Numbered from the stretch's first letter, positions 8,744 through 37,290 are shown. The stretch is 38,652 nt of DNA from a virus (IMGVR_UViG_2671180727_000010), one strand, 5' to 3'. Notes: a model not told the origin generated them from the sequence alone. Program-made: numbers and translations.

Positions 8744-9631
8744 TTACTTAAGTCCAATTTTCCCCAGACCGGAGGCCAACTTATCCATAGTCGACTTGTT
8801 CTTCGGTTGGGATATTGTGTAGGTCGATTTGGAATGTGAGCCTACACCCTGCTTGGCTTCGCTACGCATCAATGCGTCAGCTTCCGGATCTGCCCGCACA
8901 ATGCGTTCAATCGCGGATTCAAACGGCAACGGCTTACCTTCACCGTCAACCAGAACAGCTCGTTCTTTGTGACCTGCCGGTTTGTCATAACCCACTACGC
9001 TACCGTCTTCACCCACTTCAAAATGAGAACCGTAGATCACGCGGGCTTTTGCCGGGGTCATCAGAACTTTGTCACGTAGGAAGAGAGAGTTACTGAAGGA
9101 AGCGCCCACGGTCATCTCGACTAATTGAGATTTCAGTGATGCGTTTTCACTTTCCAGTGCTGCATAACGTTCGTCACGCTGTGCCAGCTCTGCCTGGTGT
9201 GCTTCGATCATCTGTTTTTTAACAGCATCGAACTCACCACGACGCTCCAGTTCAGCTTGCTCCGCCTCACGACGTGCGTTTTCTGCGGCCTGTTCAGCTT
9301 CTAAAAGCTGGCGAGCACGAGCCGGATCGATATCACCGTACTGAGCAAGCTGATCGGCCAATGTGCGCTCTTTCTCTTTGCGCTTCATGTTCTCCTTCAG
9401 CAGTTCAGCACCAGCTTTCTTGGTTTTACGAAGTTCGGCCAGTAACTCTTCCTGAGTCATGCCAGCGTATTCGTCATCGCCCTTCGGCTGCTCTTTTTGT
9501 TCACCCTGTTTGTCAGGATCTTGTGTACTCTGCTCATTATCAGCAGCTACACCGCCAGCGCCTCCACGCTCATGCGCTTCAGCGACATCCATCAGACCAC
9601 GACGGGCCAAAAGCATTTGCCACAGATTCAT
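8744..9631 (-). CDS. Scaffolding protein (putative)
   Basis: Highly charged, coiled-coil-like (..AEQAAENARREAEQAELERRGEFDAVKKQMIEAHQAELAQRDERYAALESENASLKSQL..); between portal and capsid genes. Confidence 0.5.
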   Translation of the reverse strand: MNLWQMLLARRGLMDVAEAHERGGAGGVAADNEQSTQDPDKQGEQKEQPKGDDEYAGMTQEELLAELRKTKKAGAELLKENMKRKEKERTLADQLAQYGDIDPARARQLLEAEQAAENARREAEQAELERRGEFDAVKKQMIEAHQAELAQRDERYAALESENASLKSQLVEMTVGASFSNSLFLRDKVLMTPAKARVIYGSHFEVGEDGSVVGYDKPAGHKERAVLVDGEGKPLPFESAIERIVRADPEADALMRSEAKQGVGSHSKSTYTISQPKNKSTMDKLASGLGKIGLK

Positions 9632-11227: not shown

Positions 11228-11253
11228 TTGAATAACCTTAGATAATTACTTAC

Positions 11254-12510
11254 CTATCGAGAACCACCAAGAATAACACGGTTTTTGACTGGATACCTAC
11301 GATGTACTGGATAGCCCAATGCGTCTGCACTATGCTCAATGCCACCTGTCTTATCCATATCTCGTGTTCCAGGCTTGTAGATGACTTTTTCCAGTGAATC
11401 AATCAAATGCTTGCACTTCGGATCGATATACAGCCGGATATCTCCAGATGCGGTCATCAGCATTCGGTTAACAGCATTAACACGATCCGCAATTGGCGGG
11501 TGCTTTTTCGAATAATCGACACGTAAGAATCCCTTCTCTTTGAATATGTCGACGTCAGACTCCCCGCGAGCATGTTGGCGATAAGCACCTGCCGGATCTG
11601 GAAATACCGTTATCTGTGATTTCCAGCGCCAGAAGCGTCTCTCAAGCTCATCACAAACCTCTGCCGTGTTAGAGGAAAAGAGCACCAATTCATCAATTGC
11701 CCATAGCTCACCATTTGGCTGAGGTTGCAAAATTACTGAAGACATCGGGTCAATGTTGAAGTCCTGCCCTACCCATATAGGCAACCGAGGGTTGAACTGA
11801 AGCGGTTTTACATGCACGTTACGATCGAACGGGTAGTAAACGCGCCCGGACATGTTCTCAAAGCTCGCCAGGTACTCCTGAGCGAACGATTTCGGGTCCA
11901 TATCGTTCTTAGCAGCTTCAATTTCCGCCGTAGGTACAAACGGAGAATCGGCAGTTACAAACTGCCAGCTCTTCCACTGTCCCTTTCTTTGCAGCTCTAC
12001 GTTCTGGCCTATAGTCCACAGTTTGTGAAATTCCGAGAAGCCTTTTGGCGTACCAATGATCAGTGCACCGCCGCGTGTCGATGAAAGAGTAGGTCGTAAC
12101 ACCTTGTACCAGGTGTCAGCCTTCATATCCTGAAATTCATCAAGCACTACAAAATGCAACGCTACGCCGCGCAGAGTGTCAGGCTTATCAGCACCTTTGA
12201 GGGCGATCTCCGAACCGTTCTTCAACACGATTGTCATCGTGGTGTCGTTCTTTTTCCTAACCCACTTACGAGGCAGAACTTCCTGTAGATCGTCCCACAA
12301 AATCTGGCGAGCCATCTGGTAAGTAGGAGCGACATACCAGACTCTTTGCTTTTTTTCCTTTGCCGCCGCACGAATAATAGTGGAGATCGACAACCGGGAT
12401 TTTCCCCAGCGTCGACCAGCACAAACAACTTTAAATCGATGCGGAGACTGGAAGACTTTCATCTGTCCAGAATGCAGTTGCACAAGACTGAGCGAGGACG
12501 GGATTGCCAT
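11254..12510 (-). CDS. Terminase large subunit
   Basis: N-terminal Walker A VVCAGRRWGKS; Walker B-like VVLDEFQD; C-terminal nuclease-like region; stop/start overlap with the upstream terS-like gene. Confidence 0.85.
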   Translation of the reverse strand: MAIPSSLSLVQLHSGQMKVFQSPHRFKVVCAGRRWGKSRLSISTIIRAAAKEKKQRVWYVAPTYQMARQILWDDLQEVLPRKWVRKKNDTTMTIVLKNGSEIALKGADKPDTLRGVALHFVVLDEFQDMKADTWYKVLRPTLSSTRGGALIIGTPKGFSEFHKLWTIGQNVELQRKGQWKSWQFVTADSPFVPTAEIEAAKNDMDPKSFAQEYLASFENMSGRVYYPFDRNVHVKPLQFNPRLPIWVGQDFNIDPMSSVILQPQPNGELWAIDELVLFSSNTAEVCDELERRFWRWKSQITVFPDPAGAYRQHARGESDVDIFKEKGFLRVDYSKKHPPIADRVNAVNRMLMTASGDIRLYIDPKCKHLIDSLEKVIYKPGTRDMDKTGGIEHSADALGYPVHRRYPVKNRVILGGSR

Positions 12511-13142
12511 TATTCGTCCTCCCCTTCACTTCCATCATCTGTCGCATCAAATTCGCTTAGAGCTTCTTCTTCCAACGTCTCAAGCAATTCGTCATCGATG
12601 ATTTCAGGCTCGTCGTCTTCCTGACGTAATTTCGCCACCTGGGAAGGCGTAAGCTCACCAAATACCAGGTTCGGAATTTCTTCCTCGTCATTTTCCGCAT
12701 GATCCATGCCCAATGCTTTGGACGAAACTTCAAAGCATTTTGCAAGGGTATTACTGGCTCTCTGTAAGCTCTTGAGAGAATCCTCAATCGCCCCTAAAGG
12801 CTTACCCTCACGTTTGGCCGTAGTGACTTCGACCATCACCATCTGCCCCAACGCATACGCCCAGCCGTCATAACGTGTACGACGTTCTTCTATCTTTTCC
12901 GCACGGGCTTTAGCGCGAAGCTCTGCGTCAGATTTAAGAGACTCACGAACCATCTTCCCAACAGAGTCCGCGCCTTTCTCTAATCCTCGCTTTTTGAAAT
13001 GTCTGGAGAGTGTTTCACGACGAATGCCGTACTCTTCCTCCAGCTTTGAGAGTGTATATTCGCCTGACGTCCATTTGGCTTCAGCTTCGGCCCACTCCGC
13101 TGGTGTCAGGCGAGTTTTTACCTCGTCTTTTTCGACCGTCAT
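12510..13142 (-). CDS. Terminase small subunit (putative)
   Basis: 210 aa with N-terminal HTH-like segment (YTLSKLEEEYGIRRETLSRHFKKRG) and strongly acidic C-terminal tail; directly precedes terL. Confidence 0.6.
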   Translation of the reverse strand: MTVEKDEVKTRLTPAEWAEAEAKWTSGEYTLSKLEEEYGIRRETLSRHFKKRGLEKGADSVGKMVRESLKSDAELRAKARAEKIEERRTRYDGWAYALGQMVMVEVTTAKREGKPLGAIEDSLKSLQRASNTLAKCFEVSSKALGMDHAENDEEEIPNLVFGELTPSQVAKLRQEDDEPEIIDDELLETLEEEALSEFDATDDGSEGEDE

Positions 13143-13161
13143 AGATCCCTCTAAAACACAC

Positions 13162-13245
13162 AGAGCGCGTCCATGCGCTCTAAAACAACTTGTTTACTGC
13201 ATCTGCTAACCAACTTGTTTTCTGGGGTGTTTAATTAGGTCTGGC
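13162..13245 (-). promoter_or_regulatory. Late-operon promoter/leader region with two AAAACAA-N-TTGTTTT-type operator palindromes and a leader hairpin
   Basis: Palindromes at ~13182-13196 (AAAACAAcTTGTTTA) and ~13207-13221; hairpin AGAGCGC-gtccat-GCGCTCT at 13162-13181; TAATTAAACACC -10/leader motif shared with the early-gene promoters. Confidence 0.45.
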
Positions 13246-13337
13246 ATGTCTTACGAAGCCTGCTTCCGTATATATTTAATAAGTTACTTATTATTTATAT
13301 ATACAGATGCAGGTCTTTAAATAAGCTCCCAGACCGA

Positions 13338-13604
13338 TTACATCACCAGTAACTTCGCTTTGGCTCGACCTAAAGTGGTTAACCCAAGAGTCCGGCGGTG
13401 ATAGCGATTGTCACTGCGTTGGCGCGTATGCCCTTTCTCCACCAGCCCCTTTTTTATCAGAGCGCGAATTGAGAACTGGATACTTTGCTTGGTTGTCTTG
13501 TACGGCAAAACTTCAAGCAATTCGTCCAGGTCAAGTAGATGACCTCGCTCATAACCGAGATTGAGCGTTTTGATGATGTCCTTTTGTTTGTCGGTTAACG
13601 TCAT
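13338..13604 (-). CDS. Small winged-helix-like DNA-binding protein (88 aa), last gene of the five-gene operon
   Basis: Basic C-terminus and helix-turn-wing-like core (QSIQFSIRALIKKGLVEKG); ATG 9 bp after the stop of the upstream gene. Confidence 0.45.
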   Translation of the reverse strand: MTLTDKQKDIIKTLNLGYERGHLLDLDELLEVLPYKTTKQSIQFSIRALIKKGLVEKGHTRQRSDNRYHRRTLGLTTLGRAKAKLLVM

Positions 13605-13613
13605 GGCAAATCC

Positions 13614-14504
13614 TTATGCTGGTAAAGCAATTTCTAACGGTTTATCCAAAGGTTGTTTGTCGAATGCCAGCAGTGGCAGCGTGTCAGGCAGTCGACGGCC
13701 AAAGTCAGGGTTTCGGTACACACCATACAACGGAGACGTAAAGCTCAGGTTGTGAATGTCCTTGAGCAGCTTCACAATGCTGGCCTCGTCCACCAGACTG
13801 TCGGCAATGTCCTGAATCGTCGTGCCACGATTCCGCCCAGCTTTTGCCAGGGAACTGTTCTTATGGTAGTCCGCCACCAAATCGCGCAGCGCACGGCGAC
13901 GACGAGACTCGCTCATAGCGAACAACTCTTTGACGATCGCCTCGTTATCACCCGGGTCGGAGCGGAAATGGCGCTGGAACACACGCAGTGCACTTTCATA
14001 GCTCTTCGGTCGCTCAGGGCGGATGAACTTAAACCCTGCTTTCATGGCGAAGGGATTGTATTTGCTCATCGAGGACTGGATCTCAATGATTGGCCGGTCA
14101 TGCATCCTGCTAACCAGGTTAATCATTCTATAAGAGACGCCTACGCCACGATACTGAGTATCCACAACTGAGCGACTGATCACCGCAAAGTTGTTATTCA
14201 CGTACCGACCCCAGTACTGGTTAGCCACGGTGGTATTAGTGGTTGGTTTCAACTTAGGAAACATGCGGTGGCGAGGTGCCAACAGTAGTTTCGGGTAAGC
14301 CATAACCACGACGCCCACCAGACGGTCATCAAGTTCGCAGCGATAGTAAGTTGGCGCGAAAGGTTTGCCGTCTGTTTTGTAGTGAAGCGACTTAAGAGCG
14401 TGCCAGTCCTCTACAGTTCCCTTTGTAACAGTCATTCGCTCCAGAAAGTCCAGATGACGCGGAAACTCTTCAGGGCGGTAGCGTTTAATGATGATGTCCG
14501 TCAT
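13614..14504 (-). CDS. GNAT-fold acyltransferase-like protein with ~120-aa C-terminal extension
   Basis: Motif A-like Q-x-x-G-x-G (TQYRGVGVSYRMINLV) and motif B-like YNPFAMKAGFKF; ATGA start/stop overlap with the ABC ATPase gene. Confidence 0.5.
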   Translation of the reverse strand: MTDIIIKRYRPEEFPRHLDFLERMTVTKGTVEDWHALKSLHYKTDGKPFAPTYYRCELDDRLVGVVVMAYPKLLLAPRHRMFPKLKPTTNTTVANQYWGRYVNNNFAVISRSVVDTQYRGVGVSYRMINLVSRMHDRPIIEIQSSMSKYNPFAMKAGFKFIRPERPKSYESALRVFQRHFRSDPGDNEAIVKELFAMSESRRRRALRDLVADYHKNSSLAKAGRNRGTTIQDIADSLVDEASIVKLLKDIHNLSFTSPLYGVYRNPDFGRRLPDTLPLLAFDKQPLDKPLEIALPA

Positions 14505-15166
14505 GAATGGACCTCATCATGACTACCATTGTGATATTCCACCTTCACGCGTTCTTTGTAGTGCTTGGTGATCTGCATATCAGGGCGCAGCGCGTTCTTC
14601 AGGTCTTCGTGAGTCGTCGCCACCATTACCGTCGCACCAACCTTTCGAGCGGCACGCTGGAGGTTAGACGCCACAACCTGAGCGGTTACACGGTCGAGAA
14701 CAGCGCCGAACTCGTCAGCAGCCCATACTTTAGCGCCTGACTCAATCAGTTTGGCAATCTTGAGACGATATTTCTGGCCGTCTGACATTTCAGAAGGCTT
14801 GCGAACAAACAAATATGCATCGTTCAGACCAGCCATAGATAACAACCCAAGCGCATCACTGGTCGTTTTGCCCAACTGATCGATGACGTTAACCTCATTA
14901 TCGAAGGTAAAATCATCGATGGAGGCTACAGACAGCCCTTCATCCTTCATCTGTCGTTGCAACTCGCGCAGCACAACGGATTTGCCGGAACCGGATTGGC
15001 CGGTGATGTACACCACATCGCCCTGCTTCACTTCCAGCTCCAGATTGTCGTAAAGCGTCCACTCTTTTTCGTCCAGGCCAAGCCCGAACGACTCAGCGAT
15101 TTCCAACGTGCGCGTGGTTTTATTTACGCGTGTCTGAAACGATACGTTGATGATGTATTTGCTCAT
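14501..15166 (-). CDS. Stand-alone ABC-type ATPase (no membrane domain)
   Basis: Walker A GQSGSGKS; ABC signature-like MSDGQKYRL; Walker B VWAADEF; H-loop TTHED; ATGA overlap with the upstream ParB-like gene. Confidence 0.75.
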   Translation of the reverse strand: MSKYIINVSFQTRVNKTTRTLEIAESFGLGLDEKEWTLYDNLELEVKQGDVVYITGQSGSGKSVVLRELQRQMKDEGLSVASIDDFTFDNEVNVIDQLGKTTSDALGLLSMAGLNDAYLFVRKPSEMSDGQKYRLKIAKLIESGAKVWAADEFGAVLDRVTAQVVASNLQRAARKVGATVMVATTHEDLKNALRPDMQITKHYKERVKVEYHNGSHDEVHS

Positions 15167-15831
15167 GCAGCCATCTCCCCGGAAGAGATCTTCTCCGCAT
15201 ATGCCACAAATGCGTCTACCCCGCTTTCTCCCGTCATTTCTTCCATATGGGCAAGCAAATCACCAACAACAATGGCAGAGCCAGCAGGGAGCGTTTTAAA
15301 GCCCAATACGTCGACAACACGTACTTCTTCCGCTGCAACTTCACGACTGATCTCGGTGTGTTCATCCTTCTGTCGTTTAGTTTCTTCGCCAAGATCGATA
15401 ACTAGCGAGTCGGTGTCCATTTCTTCTGTCATACTGCCAACGAGAACATTCAACTCACGCTCTTCAAAGCCGAAAACCTCGATATCGTCCAGAACAAGCG
15501 ACTCAAGCTCTTTCTGTAGCTTAATTGCATCGTAATCAATGCTGGCAAGTCGGTTATCTTCAAGGCGCTTCGCACGAACCTCGTCATCACTGAGATCATC
15601 GCGAACAATAACCGGTACGCGCTCAAGTCCAGCAAAAATTGCAGCCTCACGGCGGCCGTGGCCAGTAATAATTACGTCGTTCTTATCGACCGTAATTGGC
15701 TGGTCAAATCCGCGCTTTTTAATGGCTGCGGCCAGATCTCTGATCTGCTGTTCATCATGCTTTTTGGCATTCATCTCATAGGGAATAAGATCTGCCGGGT
15801 CGCGATATACGATTTCAAACTTTTTGGTCAT
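15163..15831 (-). CDS. ParB/Srx (ParB N-terminal nuclease-like) domain protein
   Basis: Motif ITGHGRREAA (ParB box GxxRxxA); ATG at 15831 preceded by AAGGAG and overlapping the upstream stop as TAATG (track ORF extends to a GTG at 15864). Confidence 0.7.
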   Translation of the reverse strand: MTKKFEIVYRDPADLIPYEMNAKKHDEQQIRDLAAAIKKRGFDQPITVDKNDVIITGHGRREAAIFAGLERVPVIVRDDLSDDEVRAKRLEDNRLASIDYDAIKLQKELESLVLDDIEVFGFEERELNVLVGSMTEEMDTDSLVIDLGEETKRQKDEHTEISREVAAEEVRVVDVLGFKTLPAGSAIVVGDLLAHMEEMTGESGVDAFVAYAEKISSGEMAA

Positions 15832-16529
15832 TACATACGCTCCTTGTAGTAGTCGACCAGCCACACCAGAGCCTCACCAGCGTTCTCCATTTCATTACCG
15901 GTGTTAATAGCCTGCTCTTTGATGATGTTTTTTATGGTTTCTGCAACACGATCTGACGCATCGAAAGTTACTTTGAAGCGCATGGTCTGATGTTCCGCAC
16001 CCACACGTTCGGTTTTCTCTCGTTTGTCGGTATCGACAGGCTCATCACTACCACGAGACAACGCCTCCAGTGCTTCAAGGTCGATTGCCGCCTCTTTTGC
16101 TAAAACCATCGAGATTTCGTCGTCATACGGGGCGATTTCAGACAGTTGATAGTCAAGTTCTGACTGAATTTCTTCAATGAAGCGTTGCAATGCGATTTGG
16201 TCGTCTTCACCGTATCGCTCGTTGTCCACCAGTGACATCTGTTTAGCTACGACATCGCTAATTTTGCCCACAGAAAGCACCGGAACCGTTGAAATTCCTT
16301 GCTCAATAGCAGCACGCCAGCGATGTTCGCCGCCGAGGATTTCAAAAAATCCATCTTCAAGTTCACGAGCCAAAATTGGCTTAAAAAAGCCCAATTTTTC
16401 GATAGAACCTTTCAGTTTTTCAAAATTCTGCGCACCAACCGAATTGGTGTTCCAGGTATTCGGGCGAAGGTTGGCAACATCAACCTGCAAAATCGTGATT
16501 TTTACATCCATTTTATTGCTACAATCCAC
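15831..16529 (-). CDS. ParB/Srx domain protein, first gene of the operon
   Basis: Motif ILGGEHRWRAA; acidic C-terminal half; start may be the in-frame ATG at 16511 instead. Confidence 0.7.
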   Translation of the reverse strand: MDCSNKMDVKITILQVDVANLRPNTWNTNSVGAQNFEKLKGSIEKLGFFKPILARELEDGFFEILGGEHRWRAAIEQGISTVPVLSVGKISDVVAKQMSLVDNERYGEDDQIALQRFIEEIQSELDYQLSEIAPYDDEISMVLAKEAAIDLEALEALSRGSDEPVDTDKREKTERVGAEHQTMRFKVTFDASDRVAETIKNIIKEQAINTGNEMENAGEALVWLVDYYKERM

Positions 16530-16593
16530 TAAGTAATCACTTACTTATTATAATAGCCAAATAACATACAAAAGGCACTAAGGAAAGAGGTTT
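16530..16593. promoter_or_regulatory. Divergent promoter region between the ParB operon and the helicase operon, with a palindrome
   Basis: TTGCTA ...TATAAT-like hexamers and dyad AAGTAATCACTTACTT (~16531-16546); strong RBS AGGAAAGAGG before the helicase ATG. Confidence 0.5.
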
Positions 16594-18153
16594 ATGACTG
16601 TTCGGATTGTATCTAACGCAGTAAATGCGCTTATTTCTGGCGCAGATGACAAGGTAAAGCAACTGGTGCAGCAAATGTTGAGCTACGAAGTCGAGACTGG
16701 CGACTGGAAGGGCACAAGCACGATGTTCAACTGGAGTAAAAACTCGTTCCCTGCTGGCTTTGCCAAGCCTGTAGCGGCGAACTTGAACAAGGCGGGCATC
16801 AAATGTGTTCATATCCGCAAAGACAAAGCCCCGGCGCTTGGTAAACCAAATCCGGCGGTTAACCCATTCCCATACAATCCTGATTATGCGTATCAGGATC
16901 AGACTGTGGAAACACTGGTTCGAGAGGGAATGATGATTGCGCAGATCGCTACTGGTGGCGGGAAATCTAACGTTGCCTGCAAAGCAGCTGCACGTATCGG
17001 TCGAATGACATTATTTTTAACAACCCGCTCTGTTCTGATGTTTCAAATGGCCGAAAACTTCCAGAGATCCATCGACTACCGCGCCGAAAATGGCGAACCG
17101 TGGTTAAAAGACCAAAAGGTTGGAGTCATTGGCTCGGGTGAGTTCCAGGTATCACGACATATCAACGTCGCTACAGTTCAAACTCTTGCAAGTTTCCTCG
17201 AAGAACCACCACGCGATGCAACACCAGATAAGAAAAGCTACCACCTCAAACGTCGGGAGTTGGTGAAACGCTTCCTTTCAAGTGTCTCTCTTCTTATTCT
17301 GGAAGAGGCGCATGAGTCTTCAGGCTCAAATTTCTATGACATCGCCAGATTATGTGTGAACGCAGACTATCGTCTGGCGCTTACAGCCACGCCGTTCATG
17401 AAGGATTCGACGGAAGCCAACATGCGCCTGATGGCGGTGGCCGGGCGAATTGAAATTAAAGTCACAGAAAAGTACCTGATTGATCGAGGCATTCTGGCAA
17501 AGCCGTACTTCCTTTATCATAAAGTTGCCTACAAGCCAGACGAGGCCAGAATCAAGGCCGAACTTGCCAACAAACACCTCAATTTTAGAGTTGGTATGAG
17601 CACCGCCTACCAAAAGGCTTATCAGTTGGGGATCGTGTATAATTTGGGACGTAACGAGGCCATAGTGCGCGAGGCATTGCTTTATAAGCAACATTCACTC
17701 AACTGCATGACTCTGGTTCGTCTTAAACGCCACGGGCAAATCCTGATGGAGATGATGAAGGAGTCAGGTCTTAAAGTTGATTTCATCTATGGGGAATCTA
17801 ACCAGACGACAAGGCAAGCAAAGCTGAATAGTTTAGCGTCTGGTGAAATAGATGTTTTAATAGGCTCGACTATTCTGGATGTTGGTGTTGATGTGCCAAG
17901 CGTTGGTGCGGTCATTCTTGCTGGTGGTGGGAAAGCAGAAGTTGAAATGAGACAGCGTGTCGGTCGTGGCTTACGAGCCAAAAAAAATCAGGCAAACGTG
18001 TGTTTTATCACTGATTTCATTGACATTAGCAACAAATACCTGTTGTCTCACTCTTATGAGCGAAAACACATCATCGACACCACACCTGGCTTTGCAGAAG
18101 GTGTATTGCCTATTGATGGAGCATTCGATTTTGGAGTTCTGAAACGAGATTAG
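16594..18153 (+). CDS. Superfamily-2 DEAD/DEAH-box-type helicase
   Basis: Motif I ATGGGKS, motif II LILEEAHE, motif III LTATP, motif VI QRVGRGLR. Confidence 0.85.
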   Translation: MTVRIVSNAVNALISGADDKVKQLVQQMLSYEVETGDWKGTSTMFNWSKNSFPAGFAKPVAANLNKAGIKCVHIRKDKAPALGKPNPAVNPFPYNPDYAYQDQTVETLVREGMMIAQIATGGGKSNVACKAAARIGRMTLFLTTRSVLMFQMAENFQRSIDYRAENGEPWLKDQKVGVIGSGEFQVSRHINVATVQTLASFLEEPPRDATPDKKSYHLKRRELVKRFLSSVSLLILEEAHESSGSNFYDIARLCVNADYRLALTATPFMKDSTEANMRLMAVAGRIEIKVTEKYLIDRGILAKPYFLYHKVAYKPDEARIKAELANKHLNFRVGMSTAYQKAYQLGIVYNLGRNEAIVREALLYKQHSLNCMTLVRLKRHGQILMEMMKESGLKVDFIYGESNQTTRQAKLNSLASGEIDVLIGSTILDVGVDVPSVGAVILAGGGKAEVEMRQRVGRGLRAKKNQANVCFITDFIDISNKYLLSHSYERKHIIDTTPGFAEGVLPIDGAFDFGVLKRD

Positions 18154-18155
18154 TT

Positions 18156-18434
18156 ATGAGTGAAAAGAAAACAACTTACTGTCAGGTAGCATTGTCTGAT
18201 AAGGCCAATGACAAACTTGGAAAGTTTCAAGTGAAACTAAAAGAAAAAAATATCAAAATGTCTAAGGCTGAAGTCATAAATACCATTCTGGAACAATTGA
18301 CAATGGCCGACTTTGACAAGGTTATATCTTCTGTCGGGGCTTCCGCTAAGACTCGTGAGAAAATCATGCGTATCTATGAGAACTCTAATATGACAAAGGA
18401 AGATCTCGAAACGCTATTAAGCAGATTAAAATAA
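18156..18434 (+). CDS. Small protein, possibly ribbon-helix-helix-like (92 aa)
   Basis: ATG 2 nt after the helicase stop; no firm motif. Confidence 0.4.
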   Translation: MSEKKTTYCQVALSDKANDKLGKFQVKLKEKNIKMSKAEVINTILEQLTMADFDKVISSVGASAKTREKIMRIYENSNMTKEDLETLLSRLK

Positions 18435-18460
18435 TCACGCTATCAATTAGGGAGACAAAG

Positions 18461-18925
18461 ATGAAGTCTCCCATACTGTTCACTTTCTGTTCTAAAACTA
18501 ACATGAAATACTCGCTTCTCCCTCTACTAACGTTACCAGTGTTGATGCTTACCGCGTGCCAATCACGTCCAATATCAATCCATGACGCCAAACCAGCACC
18601 GCAGGCCAAAGTGTTCAAGTATCAAAGCGCAGCGCCAGCTACGTTGGTGGTAATGAGAGACACAGGTTTTGTAGGAGCTGGATGTGATGCTTCCATTTTC
18701 ATCAATGGCGAAACTGTCGCAAAACTGGCTACAGGCGAAAAAGCGACTTTCCATTTAAATGCCGGAGAATTAATTGTGGGTGCATCTCTTGAAGGTGCAG
18801 GTTTATGTGCTCTAAACCCCGCTCGTCAAGAGCGAGAAACGACTCTGAAGAATGGAGACACAAAAGCGTTCAGGGTGTTCACCAGCAATTCTGGTGACAT
18901 CGACATTCTGCCAACAACTCTGTGA
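18461..18925 (+). CDS. Lipoprotein (putative)
   Basis: RBS GGGAGA before the ATG; internal signal MKYSLLPLLTLPVLMLTAC with lipobox L-T-A-C. Confidence 0.6.
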   Translation: MKSPILFTFCSKTNMKYSLLPLLTLPVLMLTACQSRPISIHDAKPAPQAKVFKYQSAAPATLVVMRDTGFVGAGCDASIFINGETVAKLATGEKATFHLNAGELIVGASLEGAGLCALNPARQERETTLKNGDTKAFRVFTSNSGDIDILPTTL

Positions 18926-18929
18926 TGAC

Positions 18930-19454
18930 ATGACAACCAAAGATATTACCTACGGTATCCAAGCTGAACTCTGGCCGCGAGATTACACTAACGTTGAAAA
19001 ACTACTGATGTTCTGGCGCAGAGAACAAATTCCTGTAAGGGTCACTCTCGAAGATGGCCAGGCGTTTTGCATGTACGTTTATGGCCTCATGCCATCTCGT
19101 AACAAAGTTGACCTTTGCCCAGCCCCTTTTGACAAAGAAAATCGTATAAGGCTCCCACTTGAACGCATTAGTACAATTGAATCAGGTGTGGTTGACAGTA
19201 TCGCTCACGATTTCAAAGGTCGACTAACAGTTCACCCTGATTATGTCGATAATCGGCCATCACGCCGCGATTTTTTTGCAATTTGCAACCAAGCCTACAA
19301 AGCAAACAAATCTATAAGGGTGTACATGGCGGATGGCCGTGAAATTGAGGGGGTGTCAGCAGGCGCAGATGCTTGTCAGGTTACACTACGTGTCGAGAAC
19401 GGTAGAAAAATAGTTGTTTTGTTCGATTGGGTTGAACGAATTTTGCCTTTTTGA
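18930..19454 (+). CDS. Hypothetical protein (174 aa)
   Basis: ATG at 18930 just after the lipoprotein stop (MTTKDITYGIQ...); the track ORF starts earlier at 18852 within the overlap. Confidence 0.45.
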   Translation: MTTKDITYGIQAELWPRDYTNVEKLLMFWRREQIPVRVTLEDGQAFCMYVYGLMPSRNKVDLCPAPFDKENRIRLPLERISTIESGVVDSIAHDFKGRLTVHPDYVDNRPSRRDFFAICNQAYKANKSIRVYMADGREIEGVSAGADACQVTLRVENGRKIVVLFDWVERILPF

Positions 19455-19457
19455 GTT

Positions 19458-27067: not shown

Positions 27068-27219
27068 TCCATCACATAAAAATCGCGTTTATATATTATC
27101 AATTTTCTCACTTGTATAACCTAAATACGCATCCGTTTATCAATCCACCTTCCACAAACATCAGCTTTAGCTATGAAAAATAACAATCTCAAAGTGAAAA
27201 CCATTATCATAGGAAACGA

Positions 27220-27405
27220 TTAGATGAGATGGTCTAATTCATCATCTATCATTGCTTTAACACTTGAGTCATTAACCCCGTATTGATTTATGAACCGTTT
27301 CAGCTCCGGTGAAAACTGAAGGTAGATATCGTGAGCGTTTTTCACTGTAGGTTCAACGCCACGCATTTCAAGCGCCTTTAGTAGATATGAGTCTTCTTTA
27401 AGCAT
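27220..27405 (-). CDS. Small hypothetical protein (61 aa)
   Basis: ORF-track entry only; no motif. Confidence 0.4.
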   Translation of the reverse strand: MLKEDSYLLKALEMRGVEPTVKNAHDIYLQFSPELKRFINQYGVNDSSVKAMIDDELDHLI

Positions 27406-27441
27406 AAATTCTCCGTTGTCTAGTATGAAGCGATTGCCGGA

Positions 27442-27741
27442 TTACCATTGCCAGCACTCTAGCCCTTCAACGACCGGTGCACCACAATCAAAATGTACAG
27501 AGTCAAAGCCTACATCAAGTACTTTCTGAATGTTCGCAATCGCGCCCTCGGATATACCATATCGACGCAACTCATCTTTCCAGTCATCGTCCTGTAACCC
27601 GGCGTGGACAATGCAACCGTACTCAATTTGTGAAACCCAATCCAGCTCATTGCTTGCGATCATGAATCGGCGAGCATCTTCCTCTGATGTATGAGATGAG
27701 CTGATCAATGCCACCTGGTAGGCTTGGGTAATGTTCAACAT
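27442..27741 (-). CDS. Small acidic protein (99 aa)
   Basis: ATG at 27741 with GGAG upstream (track ORF starts at a GTG at 27750); operator sites upstream. Confidence 0.45.
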   Translation of the reverse strand: MLNITQAYQVALISSSHTSEEDARRFMIASNELDWVSQIEYGCIVHAGLQDDDWKDELRRYGISEGAIANIQKVLDVGFDSVHFDCGAPVVEGLECWQW

Positions 27742-27753
27742 TTCAACCACTCC

Positions 27754-27819
27754 GAAACAATTTGTTTTCTTATGTGGCTTATTATCTCAATTAACAAAAG
27801 GCAGAAAACAAATTGTTTT
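27754..27819. promoter_or_regulatory. Two AAAACAA-N-TTGTTTT operator palindromes
   Basis: ~27754-27768 (GAAACAAtTTGTTTT) and ~27805-27819 (AAAACAAaTTGTTTT, perfect 7-1-7 dyad); -10-like GATAAT between them on the minus strand. Confidence 0.5.
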
Positions 27820-31231: not shown

Positions 31232-31621
31232 CTACATCACGGGACAATCATCAAACTCGCCACTTCTTGCGTCGTTGATAATGTGAGTGATCACACCAAA
31301 CACGGCATTGCTGCCCGTGCATCCATCGTCATCCTTTGGCAATGCTTCCTTCTTACCGGTTCTTAAATCCTCCAGATGCTGACGTGGGTACTTCCGGTAT
31401 CTTTTTACGCGATATTCCCCATCCAGAGCGCATACAAGCAGAGAACCATCAACCGGGGTAAGTGAGGAATCGACCACCAGCAATGCACCCTGTAATATTC
31501 CCTCACGATGATGACTATCAGCTGCCCTCATGAAGTAGGTCGCTGAAGGATGTCTAATTATCTGCTGATCAAGAGAAATACGGCTCTCAGCATAATCCGC
31601 CGCAGGAGAAGGGAAGCCCAT
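31232..31621 (-). CDS. UmuD'-like S24 peptidase-fold protein, genetically pre-truncated (begins at the residue equivalent to the UmuD cleavage product)
   Basis: MGFPSPAADYAESRISLDQQIIRHPSATYF... aligns with UmuD from its Cys24-Gly25 cleavage site onward (my recollection of UmuD); the GDSM Ser motif is replaced by ADSHH; RBS AAGAGG; LexA box immediately upstream; no umuC-like gene adjacent. Confidence 0.75.
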   Translation of the reverse strand: MGFPSPAADYAESRISLDQQIIRHPSATYFMRAADSHHREGILQGALLVVDSSLTPVDGSLLVCALDGEYRVKRYRKYPRQHLEDLRTGKKEALPKDDDGCTGSNAVFGVITHIINDARSGEFDDCPVM

Positions 31622-34264: not shown

Positions 34265-34791
34265 CGTGCTGCCCCCTCTTTGGTGAAAATGCCTGCTGCA
34301 ATGCTGTTTATGATGCTGTCAGTGCATGGAGTAGAAAGCTGGGCATCTCCAGCAATTTTCATGACCTCAACATCCGCATATCGAATACCGAGGTGTATCA
34401 GACCGGCTATACCTGACTTAAGTCGAACATTTTCCATAAACAGATCTTTTTCCCGCTGTTTAGCGGCTTCCAACTCCATCGACAATTTTTCCAACTGCTC
34501 TTTATGCTTCTTGTATTCCTGATACGCGTGCCAAGACTGACCTTTGCGCACACTATCAGCGATATCAGCAACCTGCTCTGGTGTTAGCGTGGTCAGTGGC
34601 TGTGATGGAAAAATCATCACTTGCCCGGCATCCCAATCAAAACCCGCCTGAATTGACTGAACCTCAACTGATGGTGTTGAACCGATGCGACCAGGCGAAT
34701 GAACAACGATCGTTACATCCATATCGCGACGATGGCTGTGGTTGTTGGACAAAATACGATTCACCAACTCAGAAAATTTGGATAATTTCAT
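34261..34791 (-). CDS. Hypothetical phage early protein (176 aa)
   Basis: ATG at 34791 overlaps the upstream stop as ATGA ([14 protein letters not shown]...); the track ORF extends to 34920 through the upstream gene. Confidence 0.5.
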
Positions 34792-35111
34792 GCTGATCTC
34801 TCTTTCTCTCCCCGGATAATTCTGTTGCACACATCCACACACTCGTCGCAGATGAAAACGGCGTCCCCAGCAATTAACTTTTTGACGGCGTACTGGGATT
34901 TGTTGCAGAAGCTGCAACAAAGTGTTCGCCTGACTGATAAGGATGGAGCGCCAGATGTCAGCCGCTCCATATCGTTCTTGCGACGCAATATCACACGGCT
35001 GAACTCAACCAGTTTCTCCGGGGATATCTCCTCCTCCGTAGCGAGCGTCTCTAGTCGTTCGAGTATGTTGAAGGCTTTTTCTTGGGTAATAGCAGAGTGC
35101 GATGTGGTCAT
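34788..35111 (-). CDS. Phage protein with a C-terminal ClpX-type C4 zinc-binding domain
   Basis: [34 protein letters not shown] closely matches the ClpX N-terminal zinc-binding domain as I recall it ([34 protein letters not shown]). Confidence 0.65.
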
Positions 35112-35509
35112 TTTCTTTCACCTTCAATGTTCGTGGCGCTGGCAAGATTGTCCTTGCGAAGAAGAGCGGCTATGCGCTTACTTCCATCCGAGATAACGCC
35201 CTCGTAATACTCACGCTGCTCGTTGAGTTTTGATTTTGCCAACTCCAGTTGTTTTGTTAGTTCCGCAATACGGCAAACATCGTTGATACGCGTTTCCTCT
35301 AATGCGTTGATCTCATCCAGTAGTGCCAGCACGGTTTCTGGTCCGGCCAGAAATTTGAAGGCGTTGAGGGCATCAATATCAACACCGCTATCTTTAAGTT
35401 CCTGTTCGCATATCAGATCATCATCAACTGGCAACATTAACAGGCGTTCCATTGCCGGAATTGCACGCTCTGCCGCCTCACGCAGTGCCTGATAGTCAAT
35501 CTTGCTCAC
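35108..35509 (-). CDS. Hypothetical phage early protein (133 aa), ea22-type context
   Basis: Coupled ORF; helical, charged. Confidence 0.45.
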
Positions 35510-36006
35510 TGGATGACTCCTTTACGAAGCTGTTCAGCAATACTTACGCATATCTCTGCGCCTCTAATCAGCCCCGGAACGTTCTTGTTTGGCCCAACTT
35601 CACCATCAACAAAATCAATCATCGCGTTACGAGCCATATCCACGCCCTGCGCACGTACTTCAGCCAGAAAAGCATCGGTGGCTGGAGTCTCCGTTAATTC
35701 GCTAACCCAATTATCTCCGTGTTCCTCGGCACACATCGCATCGAATGCTCGCTCAGATTCTTTCAGGGCTGCATTCTCCGCCGCTAATGCGTCTCTCTGC
35801 GCCCGCAACTTCTCAATTTCAGCAGCCATGTAGTAACCAACCATAGCGAAGACGGCAAAAGAGTTGTCTGCCTCATCAGGCGACACTGAGGCCATTAGCA
35901 GGCCATCGTAAAAATCGTGACTCCCATTGGTGATCGCCACCGCATAGGAGTCGTGGTTCTCGCGCTTGTGAATGAGAACTACGGGATTTTCGATTTTGTT
36001 ACTCAT
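35506..36006 (-). CDS. Hypothetical phage early protein (166 aa) with a central coiled-coil
   Basis: EIEKLRAQRDALAAENAALKESERAFDAM segment; own promoter region with operator-like motif at ~36075-36095. Confidence 0.45.
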   Translation of the reverse strand: MSNKIENPVVLIHKRENHDSYAVAITNGSHDFYDGLLMASVSPDEADNSFAVFAMVGYYMAAEIEKLRAQRDALAAENAALKESERAFDAMCAEEHGDNWVSELTETPATDAFLAEVRAQGVDMARNAMIDFVDGEVGPNKNVPGLIRGAEICVSIAEQLRKGVIQ

Positions 36007-36144
36007 GTGTTTTTCTCTTCTTTGCTGTTACATAAGCACTACCAAGTGCTGGTTTATTTTCACAAATAAGAAAATGTAGAAAACAATTTATTTAAGGCCA
36101 TAAGTTATGGCCTTTATTTATTCATGCAGAAGGATTTGTAGCGT

Positions 36145-37229: not shown

Positions 37230-37290
37230 GTGTTTTTCTCTTATCGTTTAGTTATTACATTCTTACACAAATTAAGTAAGTATTTACCTA

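What the first reader, a model, noticed from the sequence alone, without database searches (positions are those of the whole stretch)
13182..27819. Conserved 15-bp palindromic operator AAAACAA-N-TTGTTTT in the leaders of at least eight transcription units, including the late operon
Near-identical 7-1-7 dyads occur at ~13182, 13207, 22323, 22808, 23558, 24461, 24945, 27754 and 27805 (the last is perfect). Each lies between a GATAAT-like -10 element and the RBS, embedded in a longer shared motif (GATAATTAACACCAACAAGAAAACAA...). This defines a regulon spanning the small early-type genes and the terminase operon, apparently controlled by one dimeric DNA-binding protein, or by an RNA element because the motif sits in the 5' leader. 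The regulator is not identified.
Basis: seen in the sequence. Interest (0 to 1): 0.65.

Follow-up and report, generated by a model that had tools for sequence, protein, structure and literature searches.

The report
Repeated promoter-operator cassette of SSU5-like phage-plasmids
A 15-base palindrome sits at fixed positions around about twenty promoters of an SSU5-type phage-plasmid; it most likely lets one still unidentified repressor keep the phage genes silent while the element lives as a plasmid.

Summary
All nine listed dyads exist, and the motif is about 60 times denser than in unrelated enterobacterial DNA.

The window is not an integrated prophage. It is an SSU5/pHCM2-type phage-plasmid of E. 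coli. The dyad belongs to a roughly 70-bp portable promoter cassette. An optional distal dyad is centred near -38. An extended -10 (TGnGATAAT) lies 18 nt downstream. A proximal dyad lies 12-13 nt after that, directly before the ribosome-binding site.

Each genome carries about 20 copies, in front of replication, partition, accessory and terminase genes. The cassette occurs in about 800 plasmids of this family and never on E. coli chromosomes. Neighbouring dyads are 25 or 51 bp apart in 100 of 102 cases. There is no compensatory variation and no stable RNA fold. Published Cyrano RNA-seq shows the dyad-linked genes silent in the lysogen.

My best reading is a double-stranded DNA operator for a repressor made in the plasmid state. 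The repressor is not identified. Candidates are a ParG-like protein encoded next to parA (outside the window), the 92-aa protein at 18156-18434, and, acting on RNA, the FljA-like tandem-Sm protein at 18930-19454. The small winged-helix protein at 13338-13604 is disfavoured. I found no published description of the motif. It is a new member of a known kind.

The parts
13207..13221 (-). Proximal dyad of the terminase (late) promoter; reads AAAACAAGTTGGTTA on the minus strand
   Evidence: The same site is present in SSU5, Cyrano and pCTX.
13182..13196 (-). Second dyad in the terS leader, 25 bp downstream of the first (TAAACAAGTTGTTTT)
   Evidence: The 25-bp spacing recurs 45 times in related loci.
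13232..13237 (-). Weak -10-like hexamer TAATTA of the terS promoter, 10-11 nt upstream of the first dyad
   Evidence: Read from the sequence. It does not pass the -10 criteria.
13161..13182 (-). Terminator-like hairpin TAGAGCGCATGGACGCGCTCTG followed by TGTGTTTT, in the terS leader right after the second dyad
   Evidence: terminator scan. The hairpin is kept in SSU5. Fold.
12510..13142 (-). terS-like first gene of the packaging and structural operon
   Evidence: phrog_867. Annotated as terminase small subunit in Cyrano.
22323..22337 (-). Proximal dyad; -10 GATAAT at 22351-22356; drives the 160-aa gene at 21821-22303
22808..22822 (-). Proximal dyad; extended -10 TGcGATAAT at 22835-22840; drives the 93-aa gene at 22508-22789
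   Evidence: The SSU5 orthologue also has the distal dyad.
23558..23572 (-). Distal dyad, 18 nt upstream of extended -10 TGtGAAAAT (23534-23539); drives the 124-aa gene at 23125-23499; no proximal dyad
24461..24475 (-). Proximal dyad; extended -10 TGgTATTAT at 24489-24494; drives the 103-aa gene at 24139-24450
24945..24959 (-). Proximal dyad; extended -10 TGcGATAAT at 24972-24977; drives the 109-aa gene at 24604-24933
26141..26155 (-). Dyad-like site (2 mismatches) at the head of a CA-rich non-coding stretch; distant relatives have two good dyads 25 bp apart here
27754..27768 (-). Proximal dyad of a two-dyad promoter; extended -10 TGaGATAAT at 27781-27786; drives the DUF5983 gene at 27442-27741
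27805..27819 (-). Perfect distal dyad of the same promoter, 51 bp centre to centre from the proximal one and 18 nt upstream of the -10
   Evidence: The 51-bp spacing recurs 55 times.
36080..36094 (-). Distal-type dyad (2 mismatches), 18 nt upstream of extended -10 TGtGAAAAT (36056-36061); drives the 166-aa gene at 35506-36006
   Evidence: Orthologous site in SSU5 at 85601.
18156..18434 (+). Candidate regulator: 92-aa protein (CYRAN_117 homologue), possibly RHH; made in the lysogen
   Evidence: 114 FPKM against a background of 9.8. Fold not confirmed.
18930..19454 (+). Candidate RNA-level regulator: FljA-like protein with two tandem Sm/Hfq-like domains
13338..13604 (-).
   Evidence: (7.8 FPKM, background level)

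Best explanation
The dyad is the operator of a portable promoter-operator cassette that is specific to SSU5/pHCM2-type phage-plasmids.

**Cassette layout.** Each cassette is a sigma-70 promoter of the extended -10 type (TGnGATAAT, with no usable -35). It follows the terminator of the gene upstream. Up to two copies of the 15-bp palindrome flank it at fixed positions. One is centred near -38, ending 18 nt before the -10. The other covers about +7 to +21, starting 12-13 nt after the -10 and ending just before the Shine-Dalgarno sequence. At the terminase promoter a further copy lies 25 bp downstream.

**Proposed mechanism (inferred).** A repressor made in the plasmid (lysogenic) state binds these sites on double-stranded DNA, probably as a dimer or a dimer of dimers. 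It blocks RNA polymerase binding or promoter escape. In this way about 20 transcription units for replication, partition, accessory and packaging genes are kept off together. They fire together when the repressor is absent or inactivated, for example on entry into a naive cell or on induction.

**Shown here:** the motif, its positions, its conservation, its restriction to this family, and the silence of the linked genes in a lysogen.

**Inferred:** the transcription start sites, binding on DNA, and repression.

**Not established: the repressor.** My ranking is:
1. The 117-aa ParG-like protein encoded after parA, outside this window.
2. The 92-aa protein at 18156-18434.
3. The FljA-like protein, acting on RNA (see rivals).
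For: **Real and specific to the family**
- Enrichment over shuffles and over unrelated DNA.
- The 40-nt cassette consensus matches 669 places in 246 of 5426 complete E. coli genomes. All are on plasmids, mostly about 95-115 kb; none is chromosomal, and every row listed lies under no annotated feature.
- It matches 803 plasmids in PLSDB.
- In IMG/VR, 69 of 120 loci with an exact 17-mer match are SSU5-like. The other 51 are mostly single hits; four of them hold 2-4 sites, and at least one of these (L124) comes from an SSU5-like contig.

**Regulon.** Cyrano has 19 sites, SSU5 21 and pCTX about 20. All good sites are intergenic and upstream of genes, including the dnaB-like helicase, nrdB, cobT-like, parA, TerB-like and terS genes.

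**Conservation.** The same dyad occurs in relatives whose FljA-like protein is only 53-57% identical.

**Positioned on the promoter**
- The gap from the -10 to the proximal dyad is 12 or 13 nt in 28 of 30 contexts, and TGn is present in 22 of 30.
- The distal dyad ends exactly 18 nt before the -10 at three window promoters.
- In 1.4 Mb of related loci, 102 neighbouring pairs lie within 120 bp: 45 at 25 bp, 55 at 51 bp, and single pairs at 50 and 105 bp.
- Distal copies lie after terminators, outside the leaders.

**Not an RNA structure**
- There are 0 compensatory changes at the six inner symmetric pairs in 82 contexts. The outermost pair is mostly non-complementary.
- Leader folding z-scores range from -1.5 to +1.25.
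- There are no Rfam hits.

**Silent in the lysogen.** First genes behind dyads read 5.7-25 FPKM in LF82(Cyrano), against a background of 9.8. The exception is parA at 50 (data from PMC9928086, S1 Table).

**The ParG-like candidate**
- It shows a pattern of basic tail, strand and two helices (IKSRTMSLEDEYFELL...TRSDVIRAAI).
- It is 98-100% identical between SSU5 and the E. coli elements. Its core is unchanged even in a 52%-identical Klebsiella variant that keeps the dyad.
- It reads 89 FPKM in the lysogen.
- The promoter of its own parA operon carries the dyad.
Against: - No transcription start site is mapped. A standard -35/-10 scan does not call these promoters.
- No binding has been shown for any protein.
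- The proximal dyad abuts the Shine-Dalgarno sequence, usually 10-19 nt before the start codon. Action on the mRNA is therefore not excluded.
- The fixed spacing could partly be inherited from a common ancestor cassette rather than selected.
- The ParG-like protein is missing from about 63 Yersinia pMT1-type plasmids that still carry the cassette. Its strand is nearly unchanged in Drgb1, which lacks the dyad. Its RHH fold rests on a sub-threshold hit, NCBIfam aCcr1 at E = 2e-4.
- The 92-aa protein has no RHH family hit and a poor structure model.
- The silence in the lysogen would also fit promoters that need an activator.
Confidence: 0.6

Rival explanations
1. The element is an RNA operator. 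The FljA-like tandem-Sm protein (18930-19454) binds the single-stranded leader sequence AAGAAAACAAnUUGUUUA next to the Shine-Dalgarno sequence. It blocks translation and destabilises the mRNAs, as Salmonella FljA does on the fliC leader.
For: - The protein matches PF03614 at E = 2.5e-84.
- The gene is in all 12 SSU5-like phage records and in 831 plasmids, with the same genus distribution as the cassette. This includes non-flagellated Klebsiella, so its target should be phage-borne.
- It is expressed in lysogens at log2 7-8 in four of five conditions.
- It has diverged to 26% identity in Drgb1, where the dyad is absent.
- The Salmonella fliC leader contains CCCAAUAAC-AU-CAAGUUGU just upstream of its Shine-Dalgarno sequence. 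The cassette leader reads ACCAACAAG-AAAA-CAAGUUGU.
Against: - Distal dyads lie upstream of the -10, after terminators, and so are not in the leaders.
- Spacing is tied to the -10.
- The linked mRNAs are at the read floor in the lysogen. From my own recollection, not a paper read here, FljA lowers fliC mRNA only about 5-fold.
- The fliC resemblance is weak: 4 mismatches to the dyad, which I estimate at a chance level of 0.02-0.05. It is absent from E. coli fliC.
- A strict palindrome is not expected for a single-stranded RNA site.
Confidence: 0.2
2. There is no dedicated regulator. The block is simply a conserved promoter and leader cassette, spread among variable genes by recombination like the PeSL cassettes of T4-type phages. 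The palindrome would then be a by-product, for example of an A-rich translation-enhancing leader followed by a U-rich stretch.
For: - The whole block from the -10 to the dyad is conserved as a unit.
- It precedes unrelated cargo genes in variable regions.
- An identical 28-bp terminator flanks one gene at 22477-22504 and 22948-22975.
- Drgb1 keeps the -10, ITS and AAGAAAA part but has a different 3' half.
- Some promoters keep only the half-site AAGAAAACAA.
Against: - The symmetric C/G positions and both arms are kept in 82 diverged contexts, while the flanks drift.
- Separate distal copies are kept at a fixed distance.
- Near-consensus extended -10 promoters are silent in the lysogen.
Confidence: 0.1
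3. The dyad is an activator site for lytic-phase transcription, for example for the 88-aa winged-helix protein at 13338-13604. The promoters would be off in the lysogen because the activator is absent.
For: - The promoters lack a -35 element, and the distal dyad is centred near -38, close to a class II activator position.
- The wHTH gene is silent in the lysogen and lies directly upstream of the double-dyad terS promoter.
Against: - Most sites lie at +7 to +21, where a bound protein should hinder transcription rather than help it.
- Many promoters carry TGn plus GATAAT, which normally needs no activator (established knowledge of extended -10 promoters).
- The wHTH recognition helix is unchanged in Drgb1, which has no dyad.
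Confidence: 0.07

Closest known systems
Phage-plasmid P1: C1 repressor with operators dispersed over the genome
   Same: Both are phage-plasmids in which one operator sequence recurs at many separate transcription units, including replication functions and entry to late expression. One protein can therefore hold the whole lytic programme off. (The P1 facts are from my own knowledge.)
   Different: The P1 operator is an asymmetric 17-mer (ATTGCTCTAATAAATTT). Here the site is a 7-1-7 palindrome placed at fixed positions on both sides of an extended -10. No C1 homologue is annotated in pCTX, Cyrano or SSU5, but I did not search for one. These elements also have a separate CI-like switch with its own palindrome, GGTAAG-N2-CTTACC.
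Omega of pSM19035 and ParG of TP228: ribbon-helix-helix centromere-binding proteins that also repress promoters
   Same: The top candidate is a small protein with a basic tail and an RHH-like pattern, encoded directly after a ParA-type ATPase. The operator is two 7-bp units in inverted orientation, and the par promoter itself carries it. (The omega and ParG facts are from my own knowledge.)
   Different: Omega binds arrays of contiguous heptads at three promoters. Here single or paired dyads are spread over about 20 promoters of a 110-kb phage genome. The RHH fold and the binding are unproven. The protein is absent from pMT1-type plasmids that keep the cassette.
KorA/KorB global regulon of IncP plasmid RK2
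   Same: Short palindromic operators, including an odd-length one with a central base, recur at many promoters of one replicon and coordinate replication, maintenance and spread. (From my own knowledge.)
   Different: KorB is a ParB-family protein. The two ParB-like genes here are at background level in the lysogen, at 5.0 and 9.5 FPKM. The positions relative to the promoters also differ.
PeSL (promoter-early stem-loop) cassettes of T4-type phages
   Same: A conserved promoter block together with stem-loop terminators brackets small, variable, mostly unknown genes. It could mediate their shuffling. (The PeSL facts are from my own knowledge.)
   Different: PeSL cassettes carry no operator palindrome and occur in virulent phages. 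Here the cassette also serves core replication, partition and packaging genes.
FljA acting on the fliC 5' leader in Salmonella flagellar phase variation
   Same: A close homologue of FljA is a core gene of these elements. The proximal dyad sits in the 5' leader next to the Shine-Dalgarno sequence, and the Salmonella fliC leader shares CAAGUUGU at a similar place.
   Different: The distal copies are not in leaders. The match to fliC is weak. There is no flagellin gene here, and the family is kept in non-flagellated Klebsiella.

Membership tests
Dispersed-operator regulon of a phage-plasmid repressor (P1 C1 type) | One operator sequence recurs at many separate promoters across the genome | tested here: met
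   There are 19-21 sites per genome in Cyrano, SSU5 and pCTX, and the good ones are all intergenic.
Dispersed-operator regulon of a phage-plasmid repressor (P1 C1 type) | Operators overlap or abut the promoter so that a bound protein blocks RNA polymerase | tested here: inconclusive
   Positions relative to the -10-like hexamer are fixed, but no start site is mapped and no binding is shown.
Dispersed-operator regulon of a phage-plasmid repressor (P1 C1 type) | Asymmetric 17-bp C1 operator consensus | tested here: not met
   The site is a 7-1-7 palindrome with an unrelated sequence.
Dispersed-operator regulon of a phage-plasmid repressor (P1 C1 type) | Repressor homologous to P1 C1 | not tested
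   No C1 is annotated in the records read. I ran no dedicated search.
RHH centromere-binding protein as global repressor (omega / ParG type) | Small protein encoded directly after a ParA-type Walker ATPase | tested here: met
   pCTX 34767-35120 follows the ATPase at 35126-35794, which matches MipZ, CbiA and ParA models.
RHH centromere-binding protein as global repressor (omega / ParG type) | Ribbon-helix-helix fold | tested here: inconclusive
   There is a sequence pattern and a sub-threshold NCBIfam aCcr1 hit at E = 2e-4. There is no Pfam hit and no PDB hit. No structure prediction was available for it.
RHH centromere-binding protein as global repressor (omega / ParG type) | Its own par promoter carries the operator (autoregulation) | tested here: met
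   The dyad AAAACAAGTTGTTTC lies 34 nt before the parA start in pCTX, SSU5 and Cyrano.
RHH centromere-binding protein as global repressor (omega / ParG type) | Protein present wherever the operator is present | tested here: not met
   It is absent from Yersinia plasmids, of which 63 carry the cassette.
FljA-type leader operator (translational repression) | Regulator belongs to Flag1_repress (PF03614) | tested here: met
   E = 2.5e-84 over the full length.
FljA-type leader operator (translational repression) | Target lies in the 5' untranslated leader near the ribosome-binding site | tested here: inconclusive
   This holds for the proximal sites and fails for the distal sites.
FljA-type leader operator (translational repression) | Protein binds the leader RNA | not testable with these tools
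   This needs a gel shift, a toeprint or CLIP.
KorA/KorB-type plasmid global regulon | ParB-family repressor made in the maintained state | tested here: not met
   The ParB-like genes CYRAN_119 and CYRAN_120 read 5.0 and 9.5 FPKM, which is background.
PeSL-type mobile regulatory cassette | Conserved promoter plus stem-loop bracketing small variable genes | tested here: met
Known structured RNA family (Rfam) | Match to a curated covariance model | tested here: not met
   There are 0 matches in the window at gathering thresholds.

The most novel reading that the evidence does not exclude
The FljA-like tandem-Sm protein, not a classical DNA-binding repressor, reads the leader motif on the roughly 20 cassette transcripts. 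It would then be the global post-transcriptional silencer of an SSU5-type phage-plasmid. Salmonella FljA, the textbook repressor of phase-1 flagellin, would be a domesticated copy of this phage regulator, and the fliC leader would mimic the phage leader motif.
Probability: 0.18. Interest if true: 0.8.

Novelty: new member of a known kind. Interest (0 to 1): 0.5.

Why it matters
**Why the family matters.** SSU5/pHCM2/pMT1-type phage-plasmids are common. The cassette is found in about 800 plasmids in PLSDB and in about 4.5% of complete E. coli genomes. These elements occur in Klebsiella, Salmonella Typhi and Yersinia pestis. Some carry ESBL genes; pCTX carries CTX-M-55.

**What is new.** In seven full-text searches I found no paper that describes how these elements control lysogeny.

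**What the motif offers.**
- A concrete, testable map of the regulon.
- A 15-bp probe with which to fish for the repressor.
- A simple sequence marker for the family.
- An explanation of how newly acquired cargo genes come under the element's control, namely by arriving inside, or recombining into, a ready-made promoter-operator cassette.

Tried and rejected
- **Host transcription factor site: rejected.** The cassette never occurs on E. coli chromosomes. No site with up to 1 mismatch occurs in 818 kb of unrelated, mostly enterobacterial DNA.
- **RNA hairpin: rejected.** There is no covariation, and folding is not better than in shuffles.
- **Rfam.** No hits.
- **CI-like repressor (CYRAN_45 homologue, pCTX 17862-18248) as the binder: unlikely.** Its own divergent control region has no AAAACAA dyad. 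It holds a different palindrome, GGTAAG-N2-CTTACC.
- **The 187-aa 'HTH regulator' at pCTX 8749-9312.** Cyrano annotates it as the HicB antitoxin, with HicA as its neighbour, and its control region has its own palindrome.
- **ParB-like proteins.** They are silent in the lysogen.
- **S24 peptidase at 31232-31621.** It has a peptidase domain only and no DNA-binding domain.
- **88-aa wHTH protein: disfavoured**.
- **Confirming the RHH fold of the 92-aa protein failed.** There is no Pfam or PDB hit, and the AlphaFold model has pLDDT 53.
- **Papers on the FljA binding site could not be read.** PMC1347349 and the 2006 PNAS paper are not held. A 2026 preprint on a phage-plasmid also could not be read.
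- **Co-occurrence counts did not separate the candidates.** All are core genes of the family.
- **Dyad-like sites inside coding DNA are judged chance matches.** These are 6782, 18168, 19406 and 35241. The 19406 site did not appear at 2 mismatches or fewer in the SSU5 scan.

Full report
**What the window is.** The 38.7-kb window is 96-99% identical to E. coli plasmids of about 110 kb, such as pCTX (NZ_CP047004.1), and to Escherichia phages CMS-2020a, PhiR41_1 and Cyrano. It is about 80% identical to Salmonella phage SSU5 and to Klebsiella phage-plasmids. It is therefore an SSU5/pHCM2-type phage-plasmid, not an integrated prophage.

The annotated relatives give the gene map. Tail, head and terminase genes lie on the minus strand up to 13142. 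A ParB/ABC-ATPase cluster ends with an 88-aa protein at 13338-13604. On the plus strand lie a helicase, a 92-aa protein, a lipoprotein-like ORF and an FljA-like protein (16594-19454). A variable block of small minus-strand genes covers 21800-27750. Then come metG, apbC, an S24 peptidase and further small genes.

**Checking the observation.** One search found two further 2-mismatch sites in intergenic DNA, at 26141 and 36080. A third, at 19406, lies inside the FljA-like coding region.
- At up to 3 mismatches there are 15 matches against 4.2 expected, and no shuffle of 100 reaches 15.
- In 818 kb of unrelated, mostly enterobacterial chromosomal DNA, no site has 1 mismatch or fewer. The window has seven.

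**Anatomy.** I oriented the sites with their genes and pooled 658 sites from 80 related loci plus the window into 82 distinct contexts. The cassette is then clear.
- The consensus of 33 distinct proximal contexts is TGnGATAAT-aACACCAACAAG-AAAACAAnTTGTTTA.
- The Shine-Dalgarno sequence follows within a few bases. The start codon is usually 10-19 nt after the dyad.
- The gap from the -10 hexamer to the dyad is 12 nt (19 cases) or 13 nt (9 cases) out of 30. TGn is present in 22 of 30.
- A second, distal copy occurs at many promoters, just after the upstream terminator and followed by CTGCCTTTT. In the window it ends exactly 18 nt before the -10 at 23558, 27805 and 36080.
- Of 102 neighbouring pairs within 120 bp, 45 are 25 bp apart and 55 are 51 bp apart; single pairs lie at 50 and 105 bp. 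The 51-bp pairs flank the promoter. The 25-bp pairs occur at the terminase promoter and at the head of a non-coding region.
- Some promoters keep a distal dyad plus only the half-site AAGAAAACAA in the leader.
- A standard -35/-10 scan does not call these promoters, because they have no -35. The promoter assignment therefore rests on the conserved extended -10, the terminator upstream and the gene downstream. No start site is mapped.

**Extent of the regulon.**
- pCTX has about 20 sites, SSU5 has 21 and Cyrano has 19. The good ones are all intergenic.
- Outside this window they precede the dnaB-like helicase, nrdB, a cobT-like gene, parA, a TerB-like gene and others.
- Relatives whose FljA-like protein is only 53-57% identical carry the same dyad.
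- The 40-nt cassette consensus matches 669 places in 246 of 5426 complete E. coli genomes. All are on plasmids, mostly about 95-115 kb; none is chromosomal.
- It matches 803 PLSDB plasmids from Klebsiella, Escherichia, Enterobacter, Yersinia, Salmonella and others.
- In IMG/VR, 69 of 120 loci with an exact 17-mer match are SSU5-like. The rest are mostly single hits.
- Variable regions with little homology still carry five to seven cassettes in front of unrelated genes. An identical 28-bp terminator brackets one window gene. The cassette therefore behaves as a portable unit.

**DNA or RNA.** Several results favour recognition on double-stranded DNA.
- Distal copies lie outside the leaders.
- Positions are locked to the -10.
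- Among 82 contexts, all variation at the six inner symmetric pairs is one-sided, with no compensatory change. The outermost pair is mostly non-complementary.
- Leaders fold no better than shuffles.
- Rfam gives nothing.

Two results point the other way. The proximal dyad abuts the Shine-Dalgarno sequence. The initially transcribed stretch ACACCAACAAG is itself conserved.

**State in the lysogen.** The S1 Table of the LF82 study (PMC9928086) gives RNA-seq for every Cyrano gene.
- First genes behind dyads read 5.7-25 FPKM in overnight LB, against a background of 9.8. The terminase gene reads 7.1. Only parA is higher, at 50.
- For units with near-consensus extended -10 elements, this fits repression.
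- Genes on the opposite strand are expressed: the CI-like gene CYRAN_45 (96), the 92-aa protein CYRAN_117 (114), and the FljA-like CYRAN_114 (18 in LB, log2 7-8 in four other conditions).
- The protein after parA, CYRAN_29, reads 89.
- The 88-aa winged-helix protein reads 7.8 and the ParB-like proteins read 5.0 and 9.5. These are at background.

**Who binds.** I could not settle this.
- *CI-like protein.* Its control region holds a different palindrome, GGTAAG-N2-CTTACC, with related copies in other intergenic spots. It probably runs a separate switch.
- *The 187-aa 'HTH regulator'.* It is HicB.
- *88-aa protein.* It looks like a winged helix, with weak Sta1, Lrs14 and LexA hits. It is silent in the lysogen. 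In the distant Pectobacterium relative Drgb1, which has no dyad in 108 kb, it is still 59% identical with an unchanged recognition helix. I rank it low.
- *92-aa protein (18156-18434).* It has an RHH-like pattern of a strand and two helices and is strongly expressed. No family or PDB hit supports the fold, and the model has pLDDT 53. It has diverged to 26% identity in Drgb1.
- *117-aa protein after parA (pCTX 34767-35120, outside the window).* It has a basic tail and the pattern IKSRTMSLEDEYFELL...TRSDVIRAAI, typical of small ribbon-helix-helix centromere-binding proteins. It is 98-100% identical between SSU5 and the E. coli elements. Its core is unchanged in a 52%-identical Klebsiella variant that keeps the dyad. 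It is expressed in the lysogen, and its own operon carries the dyad at the promoter. Against it, the protein is absent from Yersinia pMT1-type plasmids that keep the cassette. Its strand is nearly the same in dyad-free Drgb1, although the Drgb1 par promoter does carry separated AAAACAA and TTGTTTG units.

**Drgb1 as an outgroup.** Drgb1 keeps the synteny and a variant cassette, ATAATTACATCAATAAG-AAAA-N7-AATTAC, at about five promoters. The -10, ITS and AAGAAAA part is therefore older than the palindrome of the SSU5 clade.

**Comparison with known systems.** In function the cassette looks most like two systems. One is the dispersed C1 operators of phage-plasmid P1. The other is the global regulons of plasmids, namely omega of pSM19035 and KorA/KorB of RK2. 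As a mobile unit it resembles the PeSL cassettes of T4-type phages. It fails the sequence-level and protein-level membership tests for P1 C1 and KorB. The omega/ParG and FljA memberships remain open (see the table).

**Verdict.**
- The finding is real. It defines a family-wide regulon that I found described nowhere in the searchable literature.
- The most likely mechanism is ordinary: operator-mediated repression of sigma-70 promoters in the plasmid state. I give this confidence 0.6.
- I therefore file it as a new member of a known kind, with interest 0.5.
- The more unusual reading, an FljA-type Sm protein acting as a global leader-binding silencer, is not excluded. I give it probability about 0.18.

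Noticed in passing
window 18930-19454 (+): This is a close homologue of Salmonella FljA (PF03614, E = 2.5e-84). It models as two tandem Sm/Hfq-like domains with no HTH. It is a core gene of all SSU5-like phage-plasmids, including those of non-flagellated Klebsiella, so its native target is probably phage-borne rather than host flagellin mRNA.
   Followed up: partly
window 13161-13182 (-): A GC-rich hairpin followed by TGTGTTTT (terminator-like) sits in the leader of the terminase operon directly after the second dyad. SSU5 keeps it. This could mean the late operon is also controlled by antitermination or attenuation.
   Followed up: partly
window 21695-21807 and 25319-25425 (+): Two clusters of iteron-like GCCGTTTCC repeats (4 and 5 copies, several 22 bp apart) flank the variable gene block. 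They could be replication iterons or partition or ParB-type sites.
   Followed up: partly
window about 25560-26400 (minus strand): A stretch of roughly 0.8-1.3 kb is CA-rich on the minus strand, has no convincing ORF and no Rfam hit. Distant relatives also have it as gene-free DNA. It starts at a dyad-bearing promoter-like site (26141; relatives have two dyads 25 bp apart there). It may be a long non-coding RNA.
   Followed up: no
pCTX 17817 (L003), with related sites in the window at 11241-11254, 37275-37288, 16532-16545 and 24056-24071: A second palindrome, GGTAAG-N2-CTTACC, is perfect in the control region of the CI-like repressor gene. Near-copies lie mostly between genes, for example at the terL-portal junction and in the helicase promoter. 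pCTX has 12 sites with up to 2 mismatches, against roughly 4 expected by my own estimate. This is probably a second regulon.
   Followed up: partly
window 22477-22504 (+) and 22948-22975 (-): Identical 28-bp terminator hairpins (TTAAGGCCACCAGCATTGGTGGCCTTAA) bracket one small gene together with its cassette promoter. This looks like a mobile gene module.
   Followed up: no
window 31232-31621 (-): This is a protein with an S24 peptidase domain only (129 aa, no DNA-binding domain). Its Cyrano homologue CYRAN_98 is among the most highly expressed genes in the lysogen (148 FPKM). It may be a UmuD'/HumD-like function.
   Followed up: no
L319 10310-10531 (Pectobacterium plasmid Drgb1): This distant SSU5-like phage-plasmid encodes its own Hfq directly upstream of its DnaB-like helicase gene.
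   Followed up: no
L321 19120-19320 (Klebsiella plasmid NZ_CP065827.1): In a variant with a 52%-identical ParG-like protein, the 200 bp upstream of parA hold about 10 AAAACAA/TTGTTTT-like heptads, against about 2.4 expected. This looks like a centromere-like array built from the dyad's half-site.
   Followed up: partly
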